Assembly (NCBI GenBank): GCA_015231265.1
Contig: JADGBX010000004.1
Coordinates: 494 to 64,493, forward strand
Origin: Magnetococcales bacterium
Lineage (GTDB): Bacteria > Pseudomonadota > Magnetococcia > Magnetococcales > JADGBX01
Direction: 5' to 3'
DNA length: 64,000 nucleotides
The position numbers and the translations under genes are program-made. Shown one piece after another: positions 1,106 through 18,698 of the stretch. The notes under the pieces are model-generated. The model did not search any database. It saw only the letters and a list, made by a program, of their open reading frames with translations, and was not told the DNA's origin. Every line of letters begins with the position of its first letter. The stretch's first letter is position 1.

Positions 1106-1552
1106 ATGCCAAGAATTCGCCTTACTGAAACGATCCCTTATACACCGGATCAGGTCTACGGCCTCATCGTCGATGTTGAGAGCTATCCACAGTTTCTGCC
1201 GTGGTGTGTCTCAACGCGTAAATTCGACGTTGAAGAGGAGCAGTTCATTGCCGAACTGACCATCGCCTTCAAAGGGATCCGTCAGAGTTTTCAAACTATT
1301 GACAGGGTTATTCCTGGCAAACAAGTTGACATCCATCTCAAATCAGGACCGTTTCGTCATCTGACGAGTCACTGGCGCCTGACACCCCAATCCAACGACT
1401 CAACACGCATCGACTTTTCCATCGATTTCCAGTTCAAAAGCCGAATCATGAATATGACGGTCGGCCCGGTTTTCACCCACGCTGCCAAGCAGATGGTGGC
1501 CGCCTTCCGGAGTCGTGCACAAGCACTGTACGGTTCGGACGCCGCCTCCTGA
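1106..1552 (+). CDS. RatA/PasT/COQ10 family START-domain protein (paralog 1)
   Basis: PYTPDQVYGLIVDVESYPQFLPWC and SGPFRHLTSHW motifs; C-terminal MVAAFRSRAQALYG. Confidence 0.9.
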   Translation: MPRIRLTETIPYTPDQVYGLIVDVESYPQFLPWCVSTRKFDVEEEQFIAELTIAFKGIRQSFQTIDRVIPGKQVDIHLKSGPFRHLTSHWRLTPQSNDSTRIDFSIDFQFKSRIMNMTVGPVFTHAAKQMVAAFRSRAQALYGSDAAS

Positions 1553-1684
1553 ACAGGTGCTGCTTATCCACAAACCTGTTGCGCCTGTTTCACGAAGAAA
1601 CTCCAGGCTGTTGACACACCACTCACTCCCTATTATTGCCTCAGAGACCCCATCGGTCTCTGCAACACATAAAGGTGGATAACG

Positions 1685-2110
1685 ATGAAAAGCGTCGCCA
1701 CTGAAACTGTCCCGTTCACTCCGCAACAGATGTATGACCTCGTCGTGGATATGGACAGTTATCCAGAATTCATCCCCTGGTGCACGGCTGCCGGCAAATA
1801 TGATGAGACCGATACCTCGTTCGTTGCCGAGATGACGGTCTCCTTTAAAGCCGTTCGCGAAACGTTTCGCACCCTGGACACCGTTGAGCCGGGAAAACGA
1901 ATCACCATCAACTTGATGTCCGGTCCGTTCAAAGAGTTAAAAAGCGAGTGGCGCTTTTCAGAGGTTCCTCGTGGTTGTAAGATCGATTTTTCCATCGAGT
2001 TCAGCTTCAAGAACAGATTGATGGATATGACTCTCGGGCCGGTTTTCGGACAGGCTACAAAAAAAATGGTCAAAGCGTTTCGTGATCGCGCGAAGGCCCT
2101 CTATGGTTGA
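1685..2110 (+). CDS. RatA/PasT/COQ10 family START-domain protein (paralog 2)
   Basis: PFTPQQMYDLVVDMDSYPEFIPWC, SGPFKELKSEW, MVKAFRDRAKALYG; AAAGGTGGA RBS. Confidence 0.9.
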   Translation: MKSVATETVPFTPQQMYDLVVDMDSYPEFIPWCTAAGKYDETDTSFVAEMTVSFKAVRETFRTLDTVEPGKRITINLMSGPFKELKSEWRFSEVPRGCKIDFSIEFSFKNRLMDMTLGPVFGQATKKMVKAFRDRAKALYG

Positions 2111-4080: not shown

Positions 4081-4608
4081 ATGGTTAACGAACAAGGCGA
4101 AAATCGCCGAGACTTTCTGATGCTCGCGACAGGGGCTGTCGGCGCGGTGGGAGTGGCCGGCGCTGCATGGCCCTTCATCAAATCGATGAGCCCCTCAGCC
4201 GACGTCCTTGCTCAGGCAACGACGGAAGTGGACATCAGCACACTCTCCGAAGGTCAGATGATCACCGTACCCTGGCAGGGTAAACCGGTGTTCATTCTCC
4301 ATCGCACACAAGCACAGATCGACGAAGCGGTCAAAGACGACGGTCAGGCTATGCGTGACCCGGAGAAAGACGGCGATCGGATCCAAAAACCGGAATGGCT
4401 CGTTGTTCTGGCTCTCTGCACCCATCTCGGTTGCGTTCCCCAGCCTATCGGAACCGGCGAGTACGGCGGTTTTCTCTGTCCCTGTCACGGCACCCACTAC
4501 GATACCTCTGGTCGCATCCGCAAGGGTCCGGCTCCGAAGAATCTCCCGGTGCCCCATTACGAGTTCAAAGACGACAGCACACTCGTGATCGGCAAGGCCA
4601 TCGCCTGA
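4081..4608 (+). CDS. petA: Ubiquinol-cytochrome c reductase Rieske Fe-S subunit
   Basis: RRDFL Tat-type anchor; CTHLGC and CPCHG Rieske motifs; GPAP. Confidence 0.97.
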
Positions 4609-4630
4609 TCGAGATAAGGAGGTTTTTCCC

Positions 4631-5839
4631 GTGTTCAAGAATATCATGGCTTGGGTGGATGAGCGTCTGCCCGTCAGCGATCTTATCAAGAGCCAGCTTA
4701 CCGAATATCCCGCCCCTAAGAATCTGAATTATTGGTGGAACTTCGGCTCTTTGGCCCTTCTCGTCCTGGTGATTCAGCTCGCCACCGGCATCTTCCTTGT
4801 GATGCACTACAAACCGGATGCCGCGCTTGCATTCGACTCAGTCGAACACATCATGCGTGACGTCAATTTCGGTTGGTTGCTTCGCTATATGCATGCCAAC
4901 GGTGCGTCATTCTTCTTCATCGCCGTCTACATCCACATTCTCCGTGGCATGTACTACGGCTCCTACCGCAAACCCCGTGAGATTCTCTGGTGGTTTGGTA
5001 TCGTCATCTTCTTCCTGTTGATGGGTACCGCCTTCATGGGTTATGTGCTTCCTTGGGGCCAGATGTCCTACTGGGGCGCTGCGGTTATCACCAACCTGAT
5101 GAGTGCTGTTCCCGTTGTTGGTGAGGATCTGGTGATCTGGGTCTGGGGTGGATTCTCCGTCGGTGATCCGACTCTGAATCGCTTCTTCTCTCTCCACTAT
5201 CTGATGCCTTTCCTCGTGACCGGCATGGTTGTTCTGCACCTGTGGGCACTGCACGCTGTTCACTCGAACAACCCGGATGGTATCGACCTGGAGAAGAAAG
5301 ACACCATCCCGTTCCATCCCTACTACACCGTTAAGGATCTCTACGGTGTCGGTGTCTTCCTGCTGATCTACTGCTTCTTTGTCTTCTTCGCGCCCAACGC
5401 CTTTCTGGAGCCCGATAACTACATCGAAGCCAATCCGATGCAGACCCCTGCGCACATTGTTCCGGAGTGGTACTTCCTGCCCTTCTACGCTATCCTGCGC
5501 TCCATCGACTTCCTGGGCACCTTCAGCAAACTGGCTGGTGTGATCGCCATGATCGGCTCCATCGCCATCCTGTTCGTGCTGCCTTTCCTGGATCGTTCGC
5601 CAGCCCGCTCATTCCGGTACCGCCCCATCAGTAAGGTGCTGTTCTGGATCTTCTTCGTTGACTGCGTCATCCTCGGTTGGGTTGGGTACAACCCCTCTGA
5701 TGCCGTCGTCCTCGGTGGGATTCCCATCGTCTATGTCGGACGTGCTGCTTCGGCCGTCTACTTCGGGTACTTCGTACTGATCTGGATTATTACGGCCTTC
5801 GGAATCGAGAAGCCCAAACCCCAGCCCAAGAGCCTTTAA
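4631..5839 (+). CDS. petB: Cytochrome b of the bc1 complex
   Basis: [31 protein letters not shown] motifs. Confidence 0.98.
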
Positions 5840-5854
5840 GGGGAGGTTGATATC

Positions 5855-6685
5855 ATGACGTTCAACTCTTTAGTCAAAGCAACCGCCCTGGTCCTGGCGC
5901 TGGCTACGCCTCAGGCACTGCTCGCAGGTGGCGCCGCTGCTCCTCTTCCCACGCAGGATTGGGAACATAAGGGAATGTTCGGGGAGTTTGACAACAACCA
6001 AATGAAACGTGGTGCCCAAGTGACCGTCGAGGTGTGCATGGGCTGCCATTCGGTCAAATACATCAAGTTCGACTTCCTGCGTCAGTTCGGTTTTACCGAG
6101 CAGGAAGTGAAAGACATGGCAGAAAGCCAAGGCCAGACCAAGAAGAGCCGGATGATCTCTTCCATGTCCGAGGAGGATGCCAAAGACTCTTTTGGTGTCA
6201 TTCCGCCTGATCTCTCTCTGATGACCAAAGCGAGAAAAGGGTACGAGGATTACACCTATGCCATGCTCACCGGTTATCTGAATGAAGATGAAAGCGAGCT
6301 CATCAACAATGCGATGGAGGACGATGCCCTCTCCGACTCTGAGATTCAGAGCATCGCCGCCAAGCTCCATTTGAACCCGGATGATCCGGAAAAGGTCAAA
6401 GAGGTGGTCACCCGCATTCAGAATGGTGAAAACTTCAACAAGTACTACCCCGGCAACTTCTTTGCCATGCCACAACCGTTGATGGCTGATCAGGTTGAGT
6501 ATGCAGATGGCACCAAAACCGATCTGCATCAACTCGCCAAGGATACAACAGCCTTTCTGGCCTGGGCTGCCGAGCCGACGCTGATGGAACGCAAATCCAC
6601 CGGTAAGGGTGTCTTGCTCTATCTGATCCTCTTGACTGCTCTGCTCTATGCAATTAAGCGTCGGATGTGGTCCAAGCTGCACTAA
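5855..6685 (+). CDS. petC: Cytochrome c1 of the bc1 complex
   Basis: Signal peptide, CMGCH heme motif, PPDLSL, FAMPQPL axial Met, C-terminal TM helix. Confidence 0.95.
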   Translation: MTFNSLVKATALVLALATPQALLAGGAAAPLPTQDWEHKGMFGEFDNNQMKRGAQVTVEVCMGCHSVKYIKFDFLRQFGFTEQEVKDMAESQGQTKKSRMISSMSEEDAKDSFGVIPPDLSLMTKARKGYEDYTYAMLTGYLNEDESELINNAMEDDALSDSEIQSIAAKLHLNPDDPEKVKEVVTRIQNGENFNKYYPGNFFAMPQPLMADQVEYADGTKTDLHQLAKDTTAFLAWAAEPTLMERKSTGKGVLLYLILLTALLYAIKRRMWSKLH

Positions 6686-6735
6686 GCTAAAGGGTGTAAG
6701 GAGTCGATTCCGGCTTCATCAACCTTGAAGAATCG

Positions 6736-6768
6736 AAACCCCTCGTCCATCATGGTCGAGGGGTTTTT
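6736..6768 (+). terminator. Rho-independent terminator after petC
   Basis: AAACCCCTCG...CGAGGGGTTT stem running into a T-tract. Confidence 0.8.
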
Positions 6769-6816
6769 CCATTGTGTCCTCAACAGTGCTCTCGTTAACT
6801 GAAAGCGGCAGATCTC

Positions 6817-9369
6817 ATGCCTGAAACCCAGCAGAATCGTGTGATGGCGTTTGCAACCTTCTTTCAAGATATTTCTCAGGAAGAGCGCCACCTATTTGAG
6901 TGTTTCAATGCTGCGACTGGTAAAACGGATGTGATCTCTACGTTCACATTCAACGAAATGGTTCACCAGTGGTGCAGACGACTTGAAGAACTCCCCAGTA
7001 CAGTTGTGCCGATTTTCGGTCATAGCTCACCTGAAATGATGGCCGCATGGTTCGGGGCGCTGAAAGTCGGCAAGAGACCTACATTCCTTTCCTACCCGAA
7101 TCAGAAAATCTCTGCTGAAGCCTATCAAACTAAATTGGAGAATTACCGACACAAGTTCGGCACTGTCACCATGGTGGGAGAATCGACGGAAAAGGCATTA
7201 GTCCCTGACCTGATCACCCCAAACACGCACCTGGAGAGAGAGCACCCCCAAAAAGAGCGACTCCCTGAGCCTATGTCTCACCCTTCGTTTCTCCAGTGTA
7301 GCTCGGGAACTACCGGTCTCCAAAAAGCTGTCGAAATCGATGAAAAAAGGCTGATCAATCAACTACAAGCCTGTTCAAAAGCGCTCTCTCTTGATCCAGA
7401 GAATGACGCCATCGTCAGTTGGTTGCCGCTCTATCACGACATGGGTTTGATCGCCACCTTCCTGCTCCCACTGTTGACACGCACACCAGTGACCTACATC
7501 GACACCTTCGATTGGGCGAGCAACCCTACACTCCTGTTGCAAGTGTTGGAACAAAAACAAGCGACACTCTGCTGGCTCCCCAATTTTGCCTTCTCTTTTC
7601 TTACAAAAGTTACAGGTGAGTATGATCTCGGATCGGTGCGCAGTTTCATCAACTGCTCTGAGCCGGTCTCTCAGATTGCATTTGATCGCTTCATGCGCCG
7701 ATTCAACGTCAGACCCCAGCAGCTTTCCATCAGTTATGCTCTGGCTGAGAATGTCTTTGCAGCAACCCATTCGGCACCGGGTTCAGCACCGATCGGTCTC
7801 CATGTGGAACGCTCGGCTCTACACCATGGAAGAGTGAGGGCAATCGGCTCGGAACCATTGAACACACAGGCAACTGATGAAAAGCATCAGGGGTCCGACA
7901 CCCCGTTTCTGACCATTTTCTCTTGTGGACGCTCTGTTGAAGGGACGGAAATCAAAATCGACGCTGAAGATGGTCGTGATATTGGAGAGGTTCTTCTCCG
8001 CGGCAACGCAACCGTTGAATCCTATGTTGACGCGGATTCTCCTCGCTCCGATGGGTGGTTTCCCACTGGAGACCTGGGGTTTATCCACAATGGAGAGCTC
8101 TATATCTCGGGCAGAATCAAAGATCTCATCATCCACAACGGCAAGAATATCTATCCCCATGATCTTGAGGAGATCGTCAATAACCACCCGGCAACTCACC
8201 CCGGTCGATGCGTGGCTTTCGGAGAAAGAGACTCCGAGCTGGAATCAGAACGAATCATCATACTGTTTGAGCCGAAACAGACCCTCAATACAGAAGAGAA
8301 ACGGCGTGTTCAACAGCAGTTGCAGGAGCAGATTGAAATGCTGTTCGATGTACGTGTCCAGGTGAATGCCGTTCCCAGAATGTGGTTGCACAAGACCTCC
8401 AGTGGCAAGATCGTCCGCTCTGCCAATCGCGAGCGGTTCCAGAAGGAGAGCCGCCGCACCATTCACATTCTCGGCGATAGCCATGTACGCATTCTCTGGA
8501 CCAATCACAACAGCCACGAGAACATGTTCCGCCATCTTCGCGCCTATTGGCTTGGGCTGCTGCGTGGTGATAACTGGAAGGAGGCGACCAGACTCTTCGA
8601 ACAGATCATCGCCACCTTCAACCCCAATGATATCCTGATCATCTCAGCAGGAGAGCCTGAGTGCCGGAACACCTTTCCGGGGTCCGATAATCCCCGCGGA
8701 GCAATCACCGAGGCGATCCACAACTATGTTTCCCTGTTCGAGTATCTGCGGGGAATCTGGGGAGGAGAGATCGCCTTCATGAGTGGGATTCCTACCACAC
8801 CGGTAGACAAGCCGGACGATGATGGCATTTGGCCAGTACTGGGTACGGCTCAGGAGCGTTATGCTCATCAAGCCCTTTTCTACACTCAAATGAAAGCGGT
8901 ACTCACCAGAATGGGGATCCCCTTTATCGATCTCTGTTCCCCTTTTCTCGACAATGATGGCCTGATGTCTCCGAATAAGCTGTTCGACGGTACCCATCTG
9001 CATCCGATATTCCGTGAGATCTACATACGGTTACTGGAAGGGAGTTATGGGTTTGTCAACAGCGCTCCTGAAGAGGTCGATCCTCTGAATACCCCGTGGA
9101 ACGGCACCTATGAGCACTATCTCACCCTCATGACCCACTATCTACACACCAAATGTTCGCCGGGAACCGAGCCCGACTTGAATCATCTGGTCTCGGGCGG
9201 TGTGCTGGACTCCATGGGCGTCGTTGAATTGATTTCACTGCTGGAGCAGTTCTTCCGCTTCAAGATTCCCTTGATGAAGGTGGGTCGCGATGATTTCGAA
9301 TCGGTGCAGCAGATCTACCGTCGCTTTGCACCCGATTTTGCCACACCCATCCCTGAGGAGACTCCATGA
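6817..9369 (+). CDS. Fatty acyl-AMP ligase-like adenylation domain + SGNH/GDSL domain + C-terminal acyl carrier protein fusion
   Basis: Adenylation motifs FLQCSSGTTGLQK, WLPLYHDMGLI, SYALAEN, TGDLGF, GRIKDLII, KTSSGKI. SGNH blocks ILGDSH, GEPECR, DGTH. Carrier motif GVLDSMGVVEL. Confidence 0.8.
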   Translation: MPETQQNRVMAFATFFQDISQEERHLFECFNAATGKTDVISTFTFNEMVHQWCRRLEELPSTVVPIFGHSSPEMMAAWFGALKVGKRPTFLSYPNQKISAEAYQTKLENYRHKFGTVTMVGESTEKALVPDLITPNTHLEREHPQKERLPEPMSHPSFLQCSSGTTGLQKAVEIDEKRLINQLQACSKALSLDPENDAIVSWLPLYHDMGLIATFLLPLLTRTPVTYIDTFDWASNPTLLLQVLEQKQATLCWLPNFAFSFLTKVTGEYDLGSVRSFINCSEPVSQIAFDRFMRRFNVRPQQLSISYALAENVFAATHSAPGSAPIGLHVERSALHHGRVRAIGSEPLNTQATDEKHQGSDTPFLTIFSCGRSVEGTEIKIDAEDGRDIGEVLLRGNATVESYVDADSPRSDGWFPTGDLGFIHNGELYISGRIKDLIIHNGKNIYPHDLEEIVNNHPATHPGRCVAFGERDSELESERIIILFEPKQTLNTEEKRRVQQQLQEQIEMLFDVRVQVNAVPRMWLHKTSSGKIVRSANRERFQKESRRTIHILGDSHVRILWTNHNSHENMFRHLRAYWLGLLRGDNWKEATRLFEQIIATFNPNDILIISAGEPECRNTFPGSDNPRGAITEAIHNYVSLFEYLRGIWGGEIAFMSGIPTTPVDKPDDDGIWPVLGTAQERYAHQALFYTQMKAVLTRMGIPFIDLCSPFLDNDGLMSPNKLFDGTHLHPIFREIYIRLLEGSYGFVNSAPEEVDPLNTPWNGTYEHYLTLMTHYLHTKCSPGTEPDLNHLVSGGVLDSMGVVELISLLEQFFRFKIPLMKVGRDDFESVQQIYRRFAPDFATPIPEETP

Positions 9370-9953
9370 GTTCCCAGAACAACACGCCCGGTCTGAAGCT
9401 GAATCTTGGCTGTGGCAATCACCATCTGAATGGCTATCTCAATGTGGATAAGGTGGGCCGGGCCGACACACTGTGTGATCTTGAATCCTTACCGTGGCCA
9501 TGGGAGAACAACAGTGTCCAGGAAATTGTCATGCGTCATGTTCTGGAGCATCTTGGTCAGAAGAGCGACACCTTTCTCGGCATCATGCAGGAGATCTATC
9601 GGGTGTGTCGAGATGGTGCCGTGATCACCATCACCGTTCCCCATCCACGCAGTGACAGTTTTCTCGACGACCCCACTCACGTCCGCCCGATTACCGTCAA
9701 CGGCATGGCCCTCTTCTCAAAAGCAAAGAATCTGGAGTGGGCGGAACGGGGTGCTGCCAACACACCGCTGGGCTTGATTCTGGATGTGGATTTCGAGTTG
9801 ACCGACTCCCGCTTCAATCTGGATGAACCCTGGCTCTCCAAACTCCAGCAGGGTGTCCTGACCACAGAGCAGATCTTTGAGGCAGAGCGGCATCAGTTCA
9901 ATGTGGTGCACGAGATTGAGATAGTCCTGACCGTGCGAAAACCTGCTCAATAA
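9366..9953 (+). CDS. Class I SAM-dependent methyltransferase-domain protein
   Basis: KLNLGCG motif I, HVLEH, DDPTH; ATGA overlap with the upstream gene. Confidence 0.8.
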   Translation: MSSQNNTPGLKLNLGCGNHHLNGYLNVDKVGRADTLCDLESLPWPWENNSVQEIVMRHVLEHLGQKSDTFLGIMQEIYRVCRDGAVITITVPHPRSDSFLDDPTHVRPITVNGMALFSKAKNLEWAERGAANTPLGLILDVDFELTDSRFNLDEPWLSKLQQGVLTTEQIFEAERHQFNVVHEIEIVLTVRKPAQ

Positions 9954-9988
9954 AAAACGGGCGTCTCTGGTGAGGTCGCCCGTTCTTT
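9952..9988. terminator. Probable bidirectional terminator between the methyltransferase and fumarase
   Basis: AAAAAACGGGCG...CGCCCGTTCTTT between convergent genes. Confidence 0.7.
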
Positions 9989-10010
9989 CATTACGACTGG
10001 TTGTGTTTCT

Positions 10011-11624
10011 TTACAGGTTGGCAAAAAAATCGTTGCCTTTATCATCTACCACAATAAAGGCGGGGAAGTTCTCCACCTCAATTCGGTAGACCGCCTCCAT
10101 ACCTAGTTCAGGATAGTCGATCACTTCGGATTTTGTGATGCACTCCTCAGCCAGTCGCGCCGCAGCGCCGCCTATGGAGCCGAGATAGAACCCACCATTA
10201 TCTTTACAGGCGTTGGTCACATCACCACTGCGATTGCCCTTTGCAAGCATTACATATGAACCACCATGCTTCTGGAAGAGATCCACATAACTGTCCATCC
10301 GTCCTGCGGTGGTGGGACCGAACGAACCCGATGCATAACCATCCGGAGTCTTGGCAGGGCCAGCATAATAGACGATGTGATTCTTGAAATAATCGGGCAT
10401 CGGCTCGTTGCGTTCCAACCGCTCCTTGATCTTGGCGTGGGCGATATCACGCGCAACGACGATGGGGCCGTTCAACATCACTCTCGTCTTGATGGGATAG
10501 GCTGAGAGCTCCTTCTTGATCTCATCCATAGGGCGGTTGAGGTCGAGTGTTACCACCTGAGCACTCAGAGACTCCGGTGGTGTCTCGGGAAGGAAACGCG
10601 CTGGTTCAGTCTCCAGAGCTTCGATCCAGATTCCAGAGCGGTCGATACGGGCAAGAACGTTTCGATCGGCTGAGCAGGAGACTCCAATGCCCACAGGACA
10701 TGAAGCACCATGACGAGGAAGGCGAATTACCCGTACGTCGTGGGCGAAGTAGCGTCCGCCGAACTGGGCACCCAGGCCATACTCCCGAGTCATCTGCAGG
10801 ATCTCTTTCTCCAGCTCACGATCTCGGAAACCATGACCAGCTCCACTTCCTTTGTCAGGCAGTGTATCCAGATAGCGGGCGGAAGCCAGTTTCACCGTTT
10901 TCAAGGTGTGCTCGGCAGAGGTTCCACCGATAACCACGGCGAGATGATAAGGAGGACACGCGGCTGTTCCCAGGCTCTTCAACTCCTCTTTCAAGAATTC
11001 TCTCAGGCTGTCCGGATTGAGAAGTGCCTTTGTTCGTTGGTAGAGAAAGGTTTTGTTGGCAGATCCTCCACCCTTGGCCATGAACAAGAACCGATAGGCG
11101 TCACCATCCACCGCCTCAAGGTCGATCTGAGCCGGGAGATTACTGCCTGTATTGGCCTCATCAAACATGGTGAGCGGGGCCACCTGAGAGTAGCGCAGAT
11201 TACCCTGGGTATAGGCATTGAACACACCACGCGACAGCGCTTTTCTATCGCCACCACCTGTCCAGACCGACTCCCCCTTCTTGCCCATGATGATCGCTGT
11301 TCCGGTATCCTGGCACCCAGGGAGAACACCACCTGCTGCGATATTGGCGTTCTTCAGTAGTTCAAAGGCGACATAGCGATCATTGTCGGAGGCTTCAGGA
11401 TCGTCCAAAATAGCACGAAGCTGTTTGAGATGGCTGGTTCTGAGCAGGTGCTCCACATCGCGAAATGCCCGTTCTGCCAGTAGTGTTAACCCTTCAGGGG
11501 CGACCTCAAGGATCTCGCGACCCCCAACGTCCTTGACAGAAACATGCTTTTTGGACACCAGTCGGTATTGCGTCTCCGTATCCGGTCCCAAAGGCAACAG
11601 ATCAGTGTATTGAAACGTGGGCAT
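10011..11624 (-). CDS. fumA: Fumarate hydratase class I (Fe-S)
   Basis: [35 protein letters not shown] motifs. Confidence 0.95.
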
Positions 11625-13731: not shown

Positions 13732-14676
13732 ATGAGCTTTTCAGATACACGACTCCGGGTTTTTTACGCCGTCGCGAAACAACTCTCTTTTACCAGAGCA
13801 GCAGAAGAACTCTATCTCACACAGCCTGCGGTCACCTTTCAGATCCGGCAGCTGGAAGAGCACTTTAATACACGACTGTTTGACCGTCACCATAACCGGA
13901 TCTCCCTCACGGAAGCCGGAGAAGTGGTGTTCGGATACGCCGAACGCATTTTGGAACTCTACCGGGAGACCGACAAGGCGATCAATGAGATGACCGGGGT
14001 CACTCGGGGAATCGTCAAGATCGGCGCCTCTACAACCATCGGCGAGTACCTGTTTCCCAGAATCCTCAGCGGCTATCACGACAATTTTCCCAATGTCCAA
14101 ATTCGACTCAGCGTCGACAACACCCGCTTGGTGGTGCGCAAACTGGAAGATGCGACTATTGATGTGGGCATGGTGGAAGGGCCGGTCAAAAACAAGAATA
14201 TCGTCACTGCTGACTGTCTGGAAGATGAGCTTGTTGTCATTCTGCCTCCTGATCATCCCCTGACCAAGATGAAGGAGATCCCTCTGGCCAAGTTCAAAGA
14301 GTGCCCGTTCGTCTCCCGTGACGAAGGATCGGGGACGCGTGAGGTGATCACTGATCTGCTCGGACAGGCTGGACTGCCATACGATCAGCTCAATGCAATT
14401 CTTGAACTTGGTACCACCGAGTCGGTAAAGGGTGCTGTCGAAGGGGGAGTCGGTGTCAGCATCGTCTCCATCGTCTCTTTGCGGAAAGAGCTGAAACTGG
14501 GCACGTTGGTTGCTCGCCGGATCAAGAGCGTTCCTCTAAAAAGAGAGATCCGCTTTGTCTACCAGAAACAGAAATTCCGTACCAAAGCGGTGGAAGAGTT
14601 TCTTAAATTTGCTCAAACACAGTGTCAACGACTCTCTGAGGAGATGGAGATATCGATTCAGGACAGCAGTTCCTGA
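13732..14676 (+). CDS. LysR-family transcriptional regulator (CysL/YeiE-like)
   Basis: HTH SFTRAAEELYLTQPAVTFQIRQLE; GASTTIGEY; RDEGSGTR. Confidence 0.92.
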   Translation: MSFSDTRLRVFYAVAKQLSFTRAAEELYLTQPAVTFQIRQLEEHFNTRLFDRHHNRISLTEAGEVVFGYAERILELYRETDKAINEMTGVTRGIVKIGASTTIGEYLFPRILSGYHDNFPNVQIRLSVDNTRLVVRKLEDATIDVGMVEGPVKNKNIVTADCLEDELVVILPPDHPLTKMKEIPLAKFKECPFVSRDEGSGTREVITDLLGQAGLPYDQLNAILELGTTESVKGAVEGGVGVSIVSIVSLRKELKLGTLVARRIKSVPLKREIRFVYQKQKFRTKAVEEFLKFAQTQCQRLSEEMEISIQDSSS

Positions 14677-16622
14677 TCTTTCGACGACTCAGACACTTTC
14701 CAGAGGATTTCTCCTGCAACGCCTGTGATTCTGCTCACAGGCGTTGTGCCTTGAACAGCATTTCCCAACACGATCGCTTCTACTTTCTCCAGGTCATGTA
14801 ACACAAGAGAGCGCTCTTGTGCTCCGGACTCACCAATAAACTGCGCACGCCAGAGACTCTTCAACAGACCATCCTCAAGAGGTGGAACAAACCACTTCCC
14901 CTCCATTCTATACGCGAGTCCGCGAATGGCAGTCTCCGTCACACAGCTCCGTTTATTGACGAACAGTGCATCATCACTCCCCTGGGTTCTGGCTTCAGCC
15001 AACGCTTCATCAAAGTGATGACGACGACTGATTTTGTACCGTAGCAATCTCTCGTTATTGTCGATGATCGTTCTGGATATCACCAGTCGCAATGAAGGGT
15101 TCGGATCTGGTAGCGGGCGCGTCAACCAAGTCATCTCACCAGTTGCATCAAGGGTGATCCTGAGCACGAATGGCAGGGCGCTGCCCTGCATAATTGTGGC
15201 CAGTTCAGTGTTGACGACTTCTGAAATGAGTGTCTGAAACCTCACGGCATCAAAAAGAAACCCAAGAGCCCTGGCCGATTGGTGCAGACGAGACGTGTGT
15301 TCAGACAAGAGGACAACAGACAGATCCGCCTCGACACGCATGGTTTCAATCAACTGGAAGGGTGCAGTCTCTCTGGAGAAAGGGGCGGTCTCCGTCATAA
15401 ATCGCCCTTTGTCAGCCAGCTCCTGCCACTCAGCATCGGTCTGGGAATCAGCAACGATTCCTCCTCCCAGTCCGAGTGTTGCTTGGTGATCCCCGTCCCA
15501 GGTCACTGTCCGAATTGCGACATTGAAGAGATAGTCACCGCCTGGAAGAAAAGCACCGATCGCGCCTGTATAGACACCGCGTGGAAACTGCTCCAACTCA
15601 CGAATGATCTCCATGGTGCGATGCTTGGGAGCGCCTGTGATTGACGCTGCTGGAAAGAGAGACTGCATCTGATCCGAGAATTTCGTTCCAGGATGCGCAC
15701 GACCTCTCACCCGTGTCTCCAGGTGATGGACTGAAGGGAAGGCACGCCAGGAGATGAGATCTCCCGTCGTCACGCTGCCGGTTTGGCACACACGGCCCAG
15801 ATCGTTACGAACCATATCAACGATCATCACATGCTCGGCACGATCCTTCTCTGACGAGAGAAGTTCCTGCCGGATTGCCATATCTGTTGTCGAATCGCTC
15901 TGTCGAGGTCGGGTGCCCTTGATCGGCCCCGACTCCAGATCATCCCCCACTCTGGCCAGAAACAGTTCCGGTGAAAAGGAAGTAACGGTCCAGTTCCCTT
16001 GGGAAATCCATGCACCGAAAGGGTGTCGATGGCGTGTCTGAAGATCGAGGAAGATCTGGGCTGGGTCACCCCTATCCAGGTGAATTCTGGAACGGGTGGT
16101 GAAGTTAACCTGATAACTATCACCGGCAAGGATTAGATCGTTGATCTTTGAAAGAGCATCGACATAGCCCGAACGACTTAGATCCAGATGACAAGAGAAC
16201 GGTGATGAAGGGGGTGACAACGAGTGTGGAGGCGAGTCGGGAATCAAACAGGCAGGCAGTGCGCTGTCATAGACGGCAAACCAGACCAAAGGCAATTGGG
16301 GTGAACCGGTTTCCGTCAATGTGCCTGATCGAGATGTGAAAACAGGAAGTCCAAAAGCGGCAGAAGCTTCATAAGAGATCCAACCAGCGACCCATTTTCC
16401 AGCCTCCGAGGCTTTTTCAGCCTCAGAGAGCACTGAGGTAACCTGGTCAGAACTGTACGCAGTCAATAATCGTTCTGGAGAGGTGAGTAGCAGAGGCACC
16501 GCAAAAGGGGCAAAATCCAGCAGCACACTCTCGCGATGTTCATGGAGCCAAAGAGGTGTGACAGGGATGGGATCACTGTCACGCAGAAGCGCTTGAATCG
16601 ACGCATCGAAAGATGTCGACAT
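14658..16622 (-). CDS. pabB: Aminodeoxychorismate synthase component I fused to a class IV aminotransferase-like (PabC-like) domain
   Basis: GDSYQVN, SFSPELF, PIKGTRPR, AEHVMIVDMVRNDLG, SITGAPK, NVAIRT; C-terminal LIETMR..H..RL domain. Overlaps the 3' end of LysR by 19 bp. Confidence 0.88.
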   Translation of the reverse strand: MSTSFDASIQALLRDSDPIPVTPLWLHEHRESVLLDFAPFAVPLLLTSPERLLTAYSSDQVTSVLSEAEKASEAGKWVAGWISYEASAAFGLPVFTSRSGTLTETGSPQLPLVWFAVYDSALPACLIPDSPPHSLSPPSSPFSCHLDLSRSGYVDALSKINDLILAGDSYQVNFTTRSRIHLDRGDPAQIFLDLQTRHRHPFGAWISQGNWTVTSFSPELFLARVGDDLESGPIKGTRPRQSDSTTDMAIRQELLSSEKDRAEHVMIVDMVRNDLGRVCQTGSVTTGDLISWRAFPSVHHLETRVRGRAHPGTKFSDQMQSLFPAASITGAPKHRTMEIIRELEQFPRGVYTGAIGAFLPGGDYLFNVAIRTVTWDGDHQATLGLGGGIVADSQTDAEWQELADKGRFMTETAPFSRETAPFQLIETMRVEADLSVVLLSEHTSRLHQSARALGFLFDAVRFQTLISEVVNTELATIMQGSALPFVLRITLDATGEMTWLTRPLPDPNPSLRLVISRTIIDNNERLLRYKISRRHHFDEALAEARTQGSDDALFVNKRSCVTETAIRGLAYRMEGKWFVPPLEDGLLKSLWRAQFIGESGAQERSLVLHDLEKVEAIVLGNAVQGTTPVSRITGVAGEILWKVSESSKDQELLS

Positions 16623-16766: not shown

Positions 16767-17654
16767 TTACAGAATGTCATGCGCTTGCAAGACTGGTCGG
16801 GGATCAACATGTAGCCTCTTGATACCCAGATCCTTCTCATCGATCCCCATGGCCAGACCAAGCAACTGAGCGAAGTTCAGCTCCGGCAGCTCAATCTTCT
16901 TGCCGATAGTGGCTTCGATAGGTCCCTGGTTGGCTCCCATGATCATATCGCACAATGTACAGGGCGAGATCATCACATCGGCACCGGCTTCACGGGCATT
17001 GAGACAGTTCTTACCCGCCATCTCATGGGTCTCCTGCTTATCGGAGAGCATGAAATGGAAACCGCAACACTTGTCATGCCCATCGTAAGCAACCGGCTTT
17101 CCACCCAAGAGTTCAATGAGTCGATCCAGATGATCGGCCTCTTCACCGGCCTTGGCATCAAAGATCTCGGCAGGACGAATATTGTGACAACCGTAGAAGG
17201 GTGCCACCTGCAAACCATTGAGTGGTTTTACGATCCGTGACTGGAGTACCTTGGGATCCACCTGATCGGTGATCACCCACAACAGATGATACACCTTGAT
17301 GGATGCCTGATACGGACGAACACCCGACTCTTCAAGCACCTTGTTGATAGATGCGAGAATATCTGGCTCGGTCCGGAAACGGTAGTTGGCATGGGTCAGT
17401 GTCTGCAAGCACGTGTTGCAGACTGTCACCAAATCGCACCCCTTCTCCTCCGCTTCGGAAAGGATCCGGGCAGCAACCGCCAGGGAGAAAGCCGGTTTGG
17501 TCTCGCGCAGGCTGACTGCCCCACAGCAGGTGGAACGCGGCATCTCATGCAGCGTAATTCCAAGAGCTTCACAGACGGAACGCGCTGACCAGTCGGCCTC
17601 TTTCTGAACCTGTTTGGCCGCGCATCCGGGATAATAGGCAAATTCCATCGGCAT
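16767..17654 (-). CDS. HdrB-like CCG-domain subunit (SdhE-type anchor of a type E succinate dehydrogenase/fumarate reductase)
   Basis: YYPGC..TCCGA..CNTC and YGC..KCCG..CTLC (two CCG domains); start moved to the ATG after a GAGGAG RBS. Confidence 0.88.
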   Translation of the reverse strand: MPMEFAYYPGCAAKQVQKEADWSARSVCEALGITLHEMPRSTCCGAVSLRETKPAFSLAVAARILSEAEEKGCDLVTVCNTCLQTLTHANYRFRTEPDILASINKVLEESGVRPYQASIKVYHLLWVITDQVDPKVLQSRIVKPLNGLQVAPFYGCHNIRPAEIFDAKAGEEADHLDRLIELLGGKPVAYDGHDKCCGFHFMLSDKQETHEMAGKNCLNAREAGADVMISPCTLCDMIMGANQGPIEATIGKKIELPELNFAQLLGLAMGIDEKDLGIKRLHVDPRPVLQAHDIL

Positions 17655-17678
17655 GATCGTCTCCTCGCACCGCACCCG

Positions 17679-18683
17679 TTACTCGGGCTCGACCTCTTTG
17701 GCTTTGGTCTCGACATCCAGGGGATTTTTCTCAAGGATATCGTACATCTTGCGAACCTCCTCAATCCCTTCCGCTTTGTGCGGAATCGGCGAGGGGATCT
17801 TGCCCTTCTTCAGTAGATGCAGGGCGGTGGGAATCTCACCCATAGTTCCGAAGATACCAATGGTCCGCATCATGACACTGAACTCGTTCAGATCACCACG
17901 GGAGGTGATATCTTCATGGAATGCCAGAGCATGTTTGGCACCAGTGGTATTGGTAAACCCCTTTTGGATACCGCGAGTCCGCAGTTTGACAATAGCCTCC
18001 ATGGGGGCCACATCCTTGGGACACGCTTCAACACACATGGCGCAACGGCTGCAGGACCACATCATGTGATCTTCCGAAAGCTCCTTAAGGCGGGCCGTCT
18101 TGCACCCTTCACGGGGGTCGGAGACGAACCGGAACGCCTTGGCCAACGCAGCAGGTCCAATATACTCCGGCGACACTTCCGCCACCGTACATTCAGAGTA
18201 GCAGCACCCGCACATGATGCACTGGGTAACGTGGTTGACCTGATCGTAGGAGTTTTGATGAACCTCGGTATCCGCCTCATCCCCCCCTTTGATGAAGGGT
18301 TGGATCTTGATCACCCGATCGAAAAAAGGTGCTATATCGATCGCCATATCCTTGAGTACCGGCTGATTGCCCTGAGGCGCCACCTCAATCACTTGGTGCT
18401 CCTTGCCTTCGACGGACCGAGCAACAATGCCAACATGCGTTTTGCATGCCAGACGAGTCTTGCCGCTGATCTTCATGGCACAGGATCCGCAGATAGCCGA
18501 CCGGCACGACTGCCGATACGTTATAGTGCTATCTTGGTGATCACGAATATCGTCAAGCGCAGTGAGCACCGTAGTCGTCTCTTCGCACTCAATTATGTAC
18601 TCCTGCCAGTTGGTATCCACCTTACCGTTGTCACCGTGGCAGGTGTTGCGCTGAACGCGGAATATGTAGGTCTTAATCGACAT
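17679..18683 (-). CDS. sdhB: Succinate dehydrogenase/fumarate reductase Fe-S subunit with C-terminal extension
   Basis: SCRSAICGSC..LAC [2Fe-2S]; CIMCGCCYSEC; CSRCAMCVEACP. Confidence 0.92.
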   Translation of the reverse strand: MSIKTYIFRVQRNTCHGDNGKVDTNWQEYIIECEETTTVLTALDDIRDHQDSTITYRQSCRSAICGSCAMKISGKTRLACKTHVGIVARSVEGKEHQVIEVAPQGNQPVLKDMAIDIAPFFDRVIKIQPFIKGGDEADTEVHQNSYDQVNHVTQCIMCGCCYSECTVAEVSPEYIGPAALAKAFRFVSDPREGCKTARLKELSEDHMMWSCSRCAMCVEACPKDVAPMEAIVKLRTRGIQKGFTNTTGAKHALAFHEDITSRGDLNEFSVMMRTIGIFGTMGEIPTALHLLKKGKIPSPIPHKAEGIEEVRKMYDILEKNPLDVETKAKEVEPE

Positions 18684-18698
18684 CTTGCTTCCTCTCGC

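What the first reader, a model, noticed from the sequence alone, without database searches (positions are those of the whole stretch)
6817..9953. Single-polypeptide adenylation-SGNH-carrier protein coupled to a methyltransferase: a candidate self-contained acyl-transfer system
Seen: the 850-aa protein has a complete FAAL-type adenylation domain, an SGNH domain with intact Ser (GDSH) and Asp-x-x-His (DGTH), and a C-terminal carrier domain (LDSM Ser, DltC-like). It overlaps (ATGA) a SAM methyltransferase, and the pair is bounded by terminators. No PKS/NRPS condensing domain or MBOAT gene is nearby. Known: in Dlt and alginate/peptidoglycan O-acylation pathways the ligase, carrier and SGNH transferase are separate proteins, and the SGNH partner is normally extracytoplasmic. 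Inference: a cytoplasmic activate-load-transfer enzyme that acylates a sugar nucleotide, glycan or small molecule which is then methylated. I do not recognise this A-SGNH-ACP order as characterised.
Basis: partly seen in the sequence, partly recalled or inferred. Interest (0 to 1): 0.7.

Follow-up and report, generated by a model that had tools for sequence, protein, structure and literature searches.

The report
Fused acid-ligase, SGNH, carrier protein enzyme
One uncharacterised bacterial protein joins an acid-activating enzyme, an esterase-like transferase domain and an acyl carrier, so it can probably activate an acid and attach it to a target inside the cell without the membrane partner that related systems need; the target is unknown.

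Summary
ORF 6817-9369 encodes an 850-aa protein with a complete FAAL-like adenylation domain, a middle domain that models as an SGNH fold (Z 15.5), and a DltC-like carrier domain. Ser555, Asp724, His727 and carrier Ser799 are invariant in 40 of 40 aligned homologues. A class I methyltransferase gene overlaps it (ATGA), and both hairpin terminators are real.

The fusion is a monophyletic family. It occurs in 28 of 56 Magnetococcales genomes and in a few Myxococcota, with no conserved neighbour. The closest stand-alone ligases sit in Dlt-like cassettes (MBOAT, carrier, GDSL proteins). The SGNH domain belongs to another, cytoplasmic SGNH clade (GDSH...GE-x-[DE]-CR...DxxH, no block III Asn). Members of that clade are repeatedly fused to glycosyltransferases, TPR repeats and methyltransferases.

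Best reading: an in-cis activate-load-transfer enzyme, most likely acylating a glycan or glycoconjugate. The acid and the acceptor are unknown.

The link to this particular methyltransferase is not conserved: its orthologues lie elsewhere in five relatives. However, three other family members carry fused methyltransferases of three different Pfam families.

I found no paper on this architecture. Earlier notes of this scan report a related fusion, in a different domain order, on other DNA.

The parts
6735..6767 (+). Hairpin terminator after petC, followed by TTTTT. It separates the bc1 operon from the gene.
   Evidence: dG -22.3 kcal/mol, z -4.64, 0 of 200 shuffles fold as well.
6817..9369 (+). 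Gene for the 850-aa adenylation-SGNH-carrier protein (P0001). The true start may be the second ATG at 6844, because many homologues begin at the position of Met10.
6817..8451 (+). FAAL-like adenylation domain, residues 1-545. Core motifs are intact: SSGTTGLQKAV, YALAE, TGDLGF, GRIKDLIIHNGKNIYP, SSGK.
8449..9060 (+). SGNH-fold domain, residues about 545-748. Block I is G553-D554-S555-H556. Block II Gly is G580. Block III is G612-E613-P614-E615-C616-R617, with no Asn. Block V is D724-G-T-H727.
8479..8481 (+). Codon of Ser555, the predicted nucleophile.
   Evidence: Invariant in 40 of 40 homologues.
8986..8997 (+). Codons of Asp724 to His727, the predicted acid and base.
   Evidence: Both invariant in 40 of 40 homologues.
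9109..9327 (+). Carrier-protein domain, residues about 765-837. The modelled helices are DltC-like.
9211..9213 (+). Codon of Ser799, the predicted phosphopantetheine attachment site (LDS motif).
   Evidence: Invariant in 40 of 40 homologues. It sits at the start of modelled helix 255-269.
9355..9360 (+). GAGGAG ribosome-binding site inside the upstream gene, five bases before the methyltransferase ATG.
9366..9953 (+). Gene for a 195-aa class I SAM methyltransferase (P0002). It overlaps the upstream stop codon (ATGA).
9956..9984 (+). Hairpin terminator after the methyltransferase gene. It is flanked by A-rich and T-rich runs and faces the convergent fumarase gene.
   Evidence: dG -19.3 kcal/mol, z -4.87.

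Best explanation
P0001 is a self-contained, cytoplasmic acyl relay that depends on its own carrier domain.

Inferred steps:
1. The FAAL-like domain adenylates a carboxylic acid of unknown identity.
2. It loads that acid as a thioester on the phosphopantetheine arm of its own C-terminal DltC-like carrier domain (Ser799).
3. The SGNH domain (Ser555, Asp724, His727) takes the acyl group from the carrier arm in cis.
4. The SGNH domain passes the acyl group to a hydroxyl or amino group of an acceptor inside the cell, with no MBOAT.

The acceptor is most likely a sugar, glycan or protein-linked glycan. In some lineages a methyltransferase works in the same pathway, either on the product or on the carrier-bound acid.

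Shown: the domains, their order, the invariant catalytic residues, the fold, the family distribution and the domain associations. Inferred: every chemical step, the acid and the acceptor.

My odds: in-cis relay with the SGNH domain as transferase about 0.6; glycan-type acceptor about 0.35; functional coupling of this particular methyltransferase about 0.35.
For: Catalytic parts are intact and conserved. The adenylation core motifs, Ser555, Asp724, His727 and Ser799 are invariant in 40 of 40 homologues at 37-47% identity.

The folds are confirmed. The SGNH fold scores Z 15.5. The carrier domain matches DltC and other solved carriers.

The fusion arose once and has been kept. All 19 fused-family adenylation domains form one clade, support 1.0, among 61 stand-alone ligases. 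The family is present in 28 of 56 Magnetococcales genomes and in 3 of 151 genomes of one Myxococcota order.

There is no conserved neighbour in the 19 relatives' loci analysed, so the protein must be largely self-sufficient.

SGNH enzymes that use thioester donors and act as acyltransferases are among the structural matches: SsfX3 Z 11.0, PatB Z 12.5, OatA Z 12.0.

The genome has a phosphopantetheinyl transferase.

Evidence for a glycan acceptor:
- A profile of the SGNH domain finds 609 representatives at E<=0.001.
- Of 29 scanned with Pfam, 6 carry TPR repeats, 5 carry glycosyltransferase domains, 5 carry methyltransferase domains and 1 carries an N-terminal PP-binding domain.
- A relative in G185 (hhalign probability 95.6%, E 1.3e-8) lies between a TPR-sulfotransferase and a TPR-GT41-methyltransferase gene, next to a TPR-GT41 gene and a flagellin gene.
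- Papers report acyl carrier protein and AMP-dependent synthetase genes inside flagellin glycosylation islands (PMC7874193 and PMC4875605; passages read).

Evidence for a methyltransferase link:
- Fused FkbM-type (P0009), Methyltransf_11 (P0014) and Methyltransf_24 (P0242) domains follow the carrier domain.
- A 48%-identical copy of P0002 is the N-terminal domain of a 1397-aa TPR-GT41 protein.
Against: - No enzymology exists, and no substrate-specific residue was identified.
- The SGNH fold cannot distinguish a transferase from a hydrolase.
- The block III oxyanion Asn is replaced by an invariant Pro, so the chemistry may be atypical.
- The glycan link rests on domain co-occurrence in remote relatives (E 1e-13 to 1e-7) and on one island, not on the gene's own context. 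The window's context is housekeeping.
- Some neighbours point elsewhere: petABC or cox operons, a CDP-alcohol phosphatidyltransferase and a PGAP1-like hydrolase.
- Profile-profile comparison found no relation between this SGNH domain and the GDSL proteins of the Dlt-like cassettes (probabilities 2.2% and 0.7%).
- Orthologues of the P0002 methyltransferase are never adjacent to the gene in other genomes.
Confidence: 0.45

Rival explanations
1. Lipid remodelling enzyme. The relay works in the same way, but the acceptor is a membrane lipid such as a lysophospholipid, lyso-cardiolipin or another envelope lipid. This would make it a functional analogue of E. coli Aas (acyl-ACP synthetase fused to an acyltransferase; recalled, not from a call).
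For: - The ligase is of the fatty-acyl-AMP-ligase type.
- SGNH lipases and lysophospholipases are among the fold matches (PlaA Z 12.8).
- The gene lies beside operons for membrane respiratory complexes. It is directly downstream of petABC in the window and in G007. It is convergent with petABC in G052, and three genes away in G050. It is directly downstream of COX2-COX1-COX3-COX3 in the myxobacterial G605.
- Lipid-related neighbours appear in single loci: a CDP-alcohol phosphatidyltransferase, and a PGAP1-like hydrolase.
Against: - The protein has no membrane-anchoring segment by eye.
- The fusions of the SGNH clade are with glycosyltransferases, TPR repeats and methyltransferases, not with lipid enzymes.
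- The respiratory adjacency may be only two or three events among related genomes, and a terminator separates the genes in the window.
Confidence: 0.2
2. Loading module with a hydrolytic SGNH domain. The ligase loads the carrier, and the acyl-carrier is used by an unlinked partner such as one of the genome's MBOAT proteins, a synthase or an N-acyltransferase. The SGNH domain acts as a proofreading or releasing thioesterase, as TesA does on acyl-ACP (recalled, not from a call).
For: - Most characterised SGNH proteins are hydrolases, and these fill the top of the fold lists.
- The closest stand-alone ligases work with separate carrier proteins and MBOAT partners. An MBOAT cluster lies within four genes in 21 loci, and carrier-protein clusters in 29 loci, among the loci L002-L080 in which a ligase ORF was found.
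- The window's genome has two MBOAT genes elsewhere.
Against: - A thioesterase fused between a ligase and its carrier would create a futile ATP-consuming cycle, yet the catalytic residues are invariant.
- No partner gene is conserved near the gene in 19 loci.
- The MBOAT examined in the genome (C144) has an ordinary partner gene and no link to this locus.
Confidence: 0.2
3. The adjacency of the methyltransferase gene is incidental. It arose when two syntenic blocks (petABC plus the fused gene, and methyltransferase plus fumarase) came together, and the methyltransferase has an unrelated, widely conserved role.
For: - In G007 the methyltransferase orthologue lies convergent to the class I fumarase, as in the window, while the fused gene sits next to petAB on another contig.
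- Orthologues at E<1e-50 occur in 8 other genomes of the order. Three of these lack the fused gene (G017, G045, G046). In the five that hold both genes, the two lie on different contigs.
- The family has 2815 hits, with 51-60% identity among the 120 best, whose named sources span several phyla.
Against: - The ATGA overlap and the Shine-Dalgarno site inside the upstream gene indicate co-transcription and translational coupling. One pair of terminators brackets exactly these two genes.
- Three other family members have fused methyltransferase domains of three different Pfam families.
- At the same genomic position, G007 carries a fused FkbM-type methyltransferase.
Confidence: 0.6

Closest known systems
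Dlt pathway of Firmicutes (DltA ligase, DltC carrier, DltB MBOAT, DltD SGNH-like transferase, DltX). Pathway details are recalled, not from a call.
   Same: The logic is the same: adenylation enzyme, dedicated small carrier, then an SGNH-fold transferase. The carrier domain matches solved DltC chains. The nearest stand-alone ligases sit in Dlt-like cassettes with MBOAT, carrier and GDSL proteins.
   Different: All three parts are in one soluble polypeptide. No MBOAT or DltX-like gene is adjacent. The ligase is FAAL-like, not DltA-like. The SGNH domain is cytoplasmic and shows no detectable relation to the cassette GDSL proteins. Pfam DltD did not match at E<=1.
AlmEFG of Vibrio cholerae (glycine ligase, carrier protein, acyltransferase acting on lipid A). 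Recalled, not from a call.
   Same: It is a Gram-negative activate-load-transfer system that works on the cytoplasmic side without an MBOAT.
   Different: It has three separate proteins. The transferase belongs to another superfamily (lysophospholipid acyltransferase type), and the donor is an amino acid.
SsfX3, the GDSL-family salicylyl-acyltransferase of SF2575 tetracycline biosynthesis (PDB 3skv)
   Same: It is an SGNH-fold enzyme that transfers an activated acyl group to a hydroxyl group in the cytoplasm rather than hydrolysing an ester. It is a structural match at Z 11.0. A review lists it as an acyltransferase with an unusual nucleophile-oxyanion zone (PMC10792757, passages read).
   Different: It is a stand-alone enzyme with an extra N-terminal domain. 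Its donor is a CoA thioester made by a separate ligase (recalled). It carries no carrier domain.
FAAL-ACP loading didomains of polyketide and lipopeptide synthases, and FadD32/Pks13 (recalled)
   Same: A FAAL-type ligase passes its acid to a covalently linked or dedicated carrier instead of CoA.
   Different: In those systems the carrier feeds a ketosynthase or condensation domain. Here an SGNH domain sits between ligase and carrier, and no synthase is in the window.
Acyl carrier protein plus AMP-dependent synthetase gene sets in flagellin glycosylation islands of Aeromonas and Enterobacteriaceae (PMC7874193, PMC4875605)
   Same: Ligase and carrier genes stand among glycosyltransferases and methyltransferases for cytoplasmic glycan tailoring (passages read). 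This is the same mix of domains to which the SGNH clade is fused.
   Different: Those are separate genes accompanied by FabG and LuxC/LuxE, they are functionally uncharacterised, and no SGNH partner was reported in the passages I read. The window's gene is not in such an island.
   Same: It expresses the same idea: a one-protein relay that skips the membrane partner.
   Different: The domain order differs (ligase, carrier, SGNH), the SGNH domain is described as DltD-like, and the lineage is different. The sequence look-up found no shared words with P0001. I did not check that note.

Membership tests
Adenylate-forming enzymes (ANL superfamily, Pfam AMP-binding) | Match above the curated cut-off, with intact core motifs (P-loop-like SSGTTG, TGD, catalytic Lys of motif A10). 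| tested here: met
   PF00501 scores 104.1 bits against a cut-off of 29.9. The motifs are invariant in 40 of 40 homologues, including K531.
Fatty acyl-AMP ligases (FAAL) | Membership of curated FAAL models. | tested here: inconclusive
   The best NCBIfam hit, NF006624, scores 237 bits but is below its 600-bit cut-off. The best solved relative is E. coli FAAL 3pbk, E 3.8e-44.
Fatty acyl-AMP ligases (FAAL) | FAAL-specific insertion that blocks use of CoA, and a fatty-acid substrate. | not testable with these tools
   A variable-length segment (residues about 340-368) aligns with the corresponding region of 3pbk. Neither CoA exclusion nor the identity of the acid can be read from sequence.
SGNH/GDSL hydrolase-like superfamily | The SGNH three-layer fold. 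| tested here: met
   Model pLDDT 87.2. Foldseek E 1e-6 to solved SGNH esterases. VIA-align Z 15.5, rmsd 3.0 A, 174 residues aligned.
SGNH/GDSL hydrolase-like superfamily | Block I Ser nucleophile (GDS) and block V Asp-x-x-His. | tested here: met
   G553-D554-S555 and D724..H727 are invariant in 40 of 40 homologues.
SGNH/GDSL hydrolase-like superfamily | Block II Gly and block III Asn of the oxyanion hole. | tested here: not met
   A Gly is present (G580, in at least 90% of sequences). Block III reads G-E-P-E-C-R, with an invariant Pro where the Asn stands in thioesterase I (ELGGND). I assigned the block by its position after the third strand of the model, not by superposition. Of 141 remote relatives, 115 have GE-x-DCR there.
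SGNH/GDSL hydrolase-like superfamily (Pfam Lipase_GDSL_2) | Score above the curated cut-off. | tested here: not met
   13.3 bits against a cut-off of 32.9. Myxococcota homologues score higher (31.3 bits) but remain below the cut-off.
Phosphopantetheine-binding carrier proteins | Helical bundle with a conserved Ser at the start of helix II. | tested here: met
   Helices are modelled at 221-233, 255-269 and 280-293 of the 306-residue model, with Ser799 at model position 255. Ser799 is invariant. The family profile matches solved carriers at E 8e-5 to 5e-4.
Phosphopantetheine-binding carrier proteins | Pfam PP-binding above its cut-off, and actual modification of the Ser. | tested here: inconclusive
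   13.6 bits against a cut-off of 20.8. Homologue P0014 scores 20.4 bits. Modification cannot be tested here. One AcpS-type transferase gene is in the genome.
Dlt D-alanylation system | MBOAT (DltB) and DltD encoded with the ligase and the carrier. | tested here: not met
   No MBOAT was found among the window ORFs scanned. There is no Pfam DltD hit. The two MBOAT genes of the genome lie on other contigs.
Class I SAM-dependent methyltransferases (P0002) | Rossmann-like methyltransferase fold with a glycine-rich motif I. | tested here: met
   Model pLDDT 95.2. Foldseek gives 378 hits at E<=0.001, and the top hits are methyltransferases. The LNLGCG motif is invariant or nearly so. Pfam Methyltransf_11 scores 21.0 bits against 21.2, just below the cut-off.

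The most novel reading that the evidence does not exclude
The protein defines a new class of cytoplasmic O-acyltransferase system. It would be a one-polypeptide, MBOAT-free relay built like the Dlt pathway, in which a distinct SGNH clade (GDSH...GE-x-[DE]-CR...DxxH, no oxyanion Asn) takes its acyl group from a tethered carrier-protein thioester rather than from acyl-CoA. It would then decorate a nucleotide sugar or a protein-linked glycan, for example on flagellin, with methylation as a coupled step. The roughly 600 stand-alone, phage-borne and glycosyltransferase-fused relatives of that clade would then be glycan acyltransferases too.
Probability: 0.25. Interest if true: 0.75.

Novelty: new variant of a known kind. 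Interest (0 to 1): 0.55.

Why it matters
Carrier-protein-dependent acylation of cell components is known in bacteria mainly from the Dlt and Alm systems. In both, the parts are separate proteins, and in Dlt the transfer needs a membrane MBOAT.

A conserved single protein that holds the ligase, the transferase-like domain and the carrier would be a compact, soluble system. It should be easy to reconstitute for studying how an SGNH domain takes an acyl group from a carrier arm.

It could also reveal an unknown acyl decoration in magnetotactic cocci and myxobacteria. If the acceptor is a glycan, that would give a function to a large unannotated SGNH clade found in bacteria, phages and giant viruses, and it would offer a tool for custom acylation.

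If the acceptor turns out to be water or a common lipid, the finding is a modest addition to known families.

Tried and rejected
- Complex prediction. Complex prediction of the SGNH-carrier part (A2) with the methyltransferase (A6) returned the verdict 'no answer', score 0.00 against a mark of 0.32. This is not evidence either way.
- Sequencing runs. None was listed for 6700-10050, so no RNA holder was listed.
- Homologue loci. The search for related loci with the whole-protein alignment returned mostly stand-alone ligases and only one true family locus, L001. I therefore switched to the genome search with the SGNH-carrier part.
- Cassette origin of the SGNH domain. The idea that it descends from the GDSL proteins of the Dlt-like cassettes was rejected for lack of signal (hhalign probabilities 2.2% and 0.7%).
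- Longer fusions. The word-index search for proteins of 1489-4250 aa found none, although P0242 (1511 aa) exists. That blank is therefore weak evidence.
- Extra C-terminal tails. The roughly 250-residue C-terminal extensions of P0016 and P0025 have no Pfam match and no Atlas hit.
- An artefact of my ORF calling. The 1122-aa reading in G044 is an upstream in-frame start chosen by my ORF caller. A source-annotated protein on a contig of the same length has 837 aa (P0033).
- A missed gene. In L124 my greedy ORF picker took a shadow ORF and missed the target gene, so only 19 of the 20 fetched loci were analysed. The same problem in high-GC myxobacterial loci was fixed with a third-position GC filter.
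- Methyltransferase fold search. It gave only generic class I methyltransferases and no specific function.
- Earlier-findings look-up by sequence. It found nothing.
- DltD among fold matches. DltD was not among the 50 fold rows shown. This does not exclude a relation.

Full report
**What is there**

The window holds two overlapping genes on the + strand: 6817..9369 (850 aa, P0001) and 9366..9953 (195 aa, P0002).
- The stop codon of the first gene overlaps the ATG of the second (ATGA at 9366-9369). A GAGGAG site lies five bases upstream of that ATG.
- Upstream, the bc1 genes petA, petB and petC (4081-6685) end in a strong hairpin at 6735-6767 (dG -22.3, z -4.6), followed by TTTTT.
- Downstream of the second gene there is another hairpin at 9956-9984 (dG -19.3, z -4.9), facing the convergent class I fumarase gene.
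- The simple consensus scan did not list these two hairpins, and as a whole it was not above chance (11 sites found, 9.5 expected).
- The two genes therefore form their own small transcription unit.

**The three domains of P0001**

Residues 51-403 match Pfam AMP-binding well above the cut-off (E 9.7e-30).
- The best curated relatives are fatty acyl-AMP ligase models, but below their cut-offs (NF006624, 237 bits against 600).
- The best solved relative is the E. coli FAAL 3pbk (E 3.8e-44).

The middle and C-terminal parts are only faint in Pfam: Lipase_GDSL_2 E 0.12 and PP-binding E 0.083. I therefore tested them in other ways.
- An AlphaFold2 model of residues 545-850, built on 19 family sequences, has mean pLDDT 87.2.
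- Model residues 1-204 match solved SGNH esterases and acyltransferases. Foldseek's top hit is a sialate O-acetylesterase at E 1e-6, with 82 hits at E<=0.001.
- VIA-align gives Z 15.5, rmsd 3.0 A over 174 residues. PatB (Z 12.5), OatA (Z 12.0) and the salicylyl-acyltransferase SsfX3 (Z 11.0) are further down the list.
- A family profile matches solved carrier proteins, among them DltC chains, at E about 4e-4.
- In an alignment of 40 full-length homologues at 37-47% identity, G553-D554-S555, D724, H727, the carrier Ser799 and the adenylation core residues are invariant.

One detail departs from the textbook SGNH pattern. Where thioesterase I has ELGGND, with the oxyanion Asn (PMC10792757, passages read), this family has an invariant G-E-P-E-C-R. 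I assigned this block by its position after the third strand of the model, not by structural superposition.

**Distribution and neighbours**

Sixty-three other 90%-identity clusters cover at least 90% of the protein.
- Nearly all of the named ones come from Magnetococcales. A subgroup with an N-terminal TPR domain comes from Myxococcota.
- With the SGNH-carrier part as query, 28 of 56 genomes of the window's order have the gene (18 of 34 high-quality genomes, 10 of 20 genera). Presence is patchy by genus: 13/14 and 7/8 in two genera, but 0/9 and 0/2 in two others.
- With a profile of the SGNH domain, a 401-genome sample of the phylum gave the same 28 genomes plus one remote hit.
- Among Myxococcota, 1 of 401 sampled genomes and 3 of 151 genomes of one order have it.
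- In a tree of adenylation domains, all 19 fused-family members form one clade (support 1.0) among 61 stand-alone ligases, so the fusion arose once.

I fetched about 19 kb around 20 relatives and analysed 19 of them; my ORF picker missed the gene in one. No neighbour is conserved. The recurrent neighbours are all lineage-specific:
- a divergent FHA protein, in 5 loci;
- a convergent carbamoyltransferase, in 4 loci;
- GapR upstream, in 4 loci;
- petABC, in 3 loci plus the window.

**Relation to Dlt-like systems**

The nearest stand-alone ligases (30-40% identity) were picked up in 79 loci from other phyla.
- Within four genes of the ligase, an MBOAT cluster occurs in 21 loci and small carrier proteins in 29. 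GDSL-type proteins are also common, some of them with TPR repeats. Pfam was checked on two members of each cluster.
- The carrier domain of P0001 finds those small carriers by BLAST at 34-40% identity.
- The ligase and carrier of the fusion therefore look like kin of Dlt-like cassettes.
- The SGNH domain does not. Profile-profile comparison with the two main cassette GDSL families gave probabilities of 2.2% and 0.7%.
- The window's genome has two MBOAT genes on other contigs. The one I examined has an ordinary partner gene and no ligase or carrier.
- Earlier notes of this scan describe such cassettes, and one ligase-carrier-DltD-like fusion, on other DNA. I did not check those notes beyond finding cassettes of the same kind myself.

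**What the SGNH domain is related to**

A profile of the domain, searched against 1.84 billion representatives, found 609 proteins at E<=0.001.
- Nine of these are fused-family representatives. They include a 1511-aa form, P0242.
- The rest are mostly proteins of 200-280 residues, plus some multidomain proteins.
- Of 141 listed relatives, 113 have GDS, 115 have GE-x-DCR (89 of them GEIDCR) and 127 have DxxH. Seventy-nine have all three motifs in order. This is a distinct SGNH clade that lacks the block III Asn.

Of 29 relatives scanned with Pfam:
- 6 carry TPR repeats;
- 5 carry glycosyltransferase domains (GT2, GT10 or GT1-like);
- 5 carry methyltransferase domains;
- 1 has an N-terminal PP-binding domain.

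The one remote hit in the phylum sample, in G185, is a TPR-SGNH protein (hhalign probability 95.6%, E 1.3e-8). It lies between a TPR-sulfotransferase gene and a TPR-GT41-methyltransferase gene, next to a TPR-GT41 gene and a flagellin gene.
- This is the make-up of a cytoplasmic flagellin glycosylation locus of the FlmG type (PMC7591256, abstract and passages read).
- The ESM Atlas look-up gave nearest clusters that are short hypothetical proteins, mostly from phages, together with TPR-fused and glycosyltransferase-fused proteins. These are leads only.
- Papers on flagellin glycosylation islands report acyl carrier protein and AMP-dependent synthetase genes among the glycosyltransferases and methyltransferases (PMC7874193 and PMC4875605, passages read).

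**The methyltransferase**

P0002 models as a class I methyltransferase (pLDDT 95.2) with no specific solved relative.
- Its family is very large: 2815 hits, with 51-60% identity among the best 120, whose named sources span several phyla.
- In the order, clear orthologues (E<1e-50) occur in 8 other genomes. Three of these lack the fused gene. In the five that have both genes, the two lie on different contigs.
- tblastn of P0002 against all loci held at that point found only the window's own copy.
- In G007 the orthologue keeps the convergent fumarase neighbour, while the fused gene sits beside petAB on another contig. The window's arrangement therefore looks like the junction of two syntenic blocks.

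Other facts speak against mere chance:
- the ATGA overlap with an internal ribosome-binding site;
- the fused C-terminal methyltransferase domains of three different Pfam families in P0009 (FkbM type), P0014 (Methyltransf_11) and P0242 (Methyltransf_24);
- a 48%-identical copy of P0002 that forms the N-terminus of a 1397-aa TPR-GT41 protein in G017.

I put functional coupling of this particular methyltransferase at about one in three. I put a methyltransferase link somewhere in the family at about two in three.

**Most likely mechanism**

Inferred steps:
1. The ligase adenylates an acid and loads it on Ser799-phosphopantetheine.
2. Ser555 of the SGNH domain takes the acyl group in cis.
3. The SGNH domain hands the acyl group to an acceptor in the cytoplasm.

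Reasons for this reading:
- A purely hydrolytic SGNH domain in this position would waste ATP. Yet the triad is invariant, and the fusion has been kept in two phyla.
- The acceptor is most likely a sugar or a glycan, judged from the domain company that the SGNH clade keeps.

Rivals:
- a lipid acceptor, suggested by the FAAL-type ligase and the neighbouring operons for membrane complexes;
- a loading module whose SGNH domain edits or releases the acyl group.

None of the chemistry is shown here. The acid is unknown.

**Unexplained**

The gene lies beside respiratory operons in two phyla.
- It is directly downstream of petABC in the window and in G007.
- It is convergent with petABC in G052, and three genes away from it in G050.
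- It is directly downstream of COX2-COX1-COX3-COX3 in the myxobacterial G605.
- Related genomes are not independent, so this may amount to only two or three events. Even so, it is more than I would expect by chance, and I have no mechanism for it.

**Novelty**

Four full-text searches found no description of the architecture.
- Three returned no paper: 'fatty acyl-AMP ligase' + SGNH + 'acyl carrier protein', MBOAT + SGNH + 'acyl carrier protein' + adenylation, and one paper only for FAAL + GDSL.
- SGNH + 'carrier protein' + 'adenylation domain' returned four papers.
- For all of the papers returned, I judged them unrelated from their listings only.

I class the finding as a new variant of a known kind: carrier-dependent acylation of the Dlt or Alm type, compacted into one soluble protein with an SGNH domain of a different clade.

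Noticed in passing
window 4081-6685; L126, L118, L119; L184 5437-9573: The fused gene lies beside respiratory-chain operons in two phyla: petABC in the window and in three Magnetococcales relatives, and the cox operon in one myxobacterium. No mechanism is known, and the number of independent events is small.
   Followed up: partly
window 8449-9060; proteins P0243-P0383: The SGNH domain belongs to a large unannotated clade with the signature GDSH...GE-x-DCR...DxxH and no block III Asn (115 of 141 representatives have GE-x-DCR). It includes many proteins of about 200 aa that the Atlas attributes mostly to phages, as well as forms fused to glycosyltransferases, TPR repeats and methyltransferases.
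   Followed up: partly
window 9366-9953; L147 7806-11996: The 195-aa methyltransferase belongs to a very large family with 51-60% identity among its best 120 hits, whose named sources span several phyla, and with no assigned function. In another Magnetococcales genome it is the N-terminal domain of a 1397-aa TPR-GT41 protein that stands in tandem with a second giant TPR-GT41 protein.
   Followed up: partly
L180 7090-16686 (G185): A flagellin-linked island encodes TPR-sulfotransferase, TPR-SGNH, TPR-GT41-methyltransferase and TPR-GT41 proteins next to a flagellin gene. Every tailoring enzyme carries its own TPR domain.
   Followed up: partly
window 1106-2110: Two tandem genes for Polyketide_cyc (SRPBCC) proteins of 148 and 141 aa lie upstream of a DsbA-like thioredoxin-fold gene.
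   Followed up: no
window 16767-20393: A succinate dehydrogenase or fumarate reductase set has a flavoprotein, an iron-sulfur subunit and a CCG-domain (cysteine-rich) subunit instead of the usual membrane anchors. It lies near the class I fumarase.
   Followed up: no
window 14658-16622: One 654-aa ORF joins a chorismate-binding domain and a class IV aminotransferase domain (a PabB-PabC-type fusion).
   Followed up: no
L115, L120, L121, L127 (genus g17): A NodU/CmcH-type carbamoyltransferase gene lies convergent to the fused gene in one genus. It is another enzyme family that tailors hydroxyl groups, and it may or may not be related in function.
   Followed up: no
proteins P0016 and P0025, C-terminal ~250 residues: Two family members carry a conserved C-terminal extension after the carrier domain with no Pfam or Atlas match.
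   Followed up: partly
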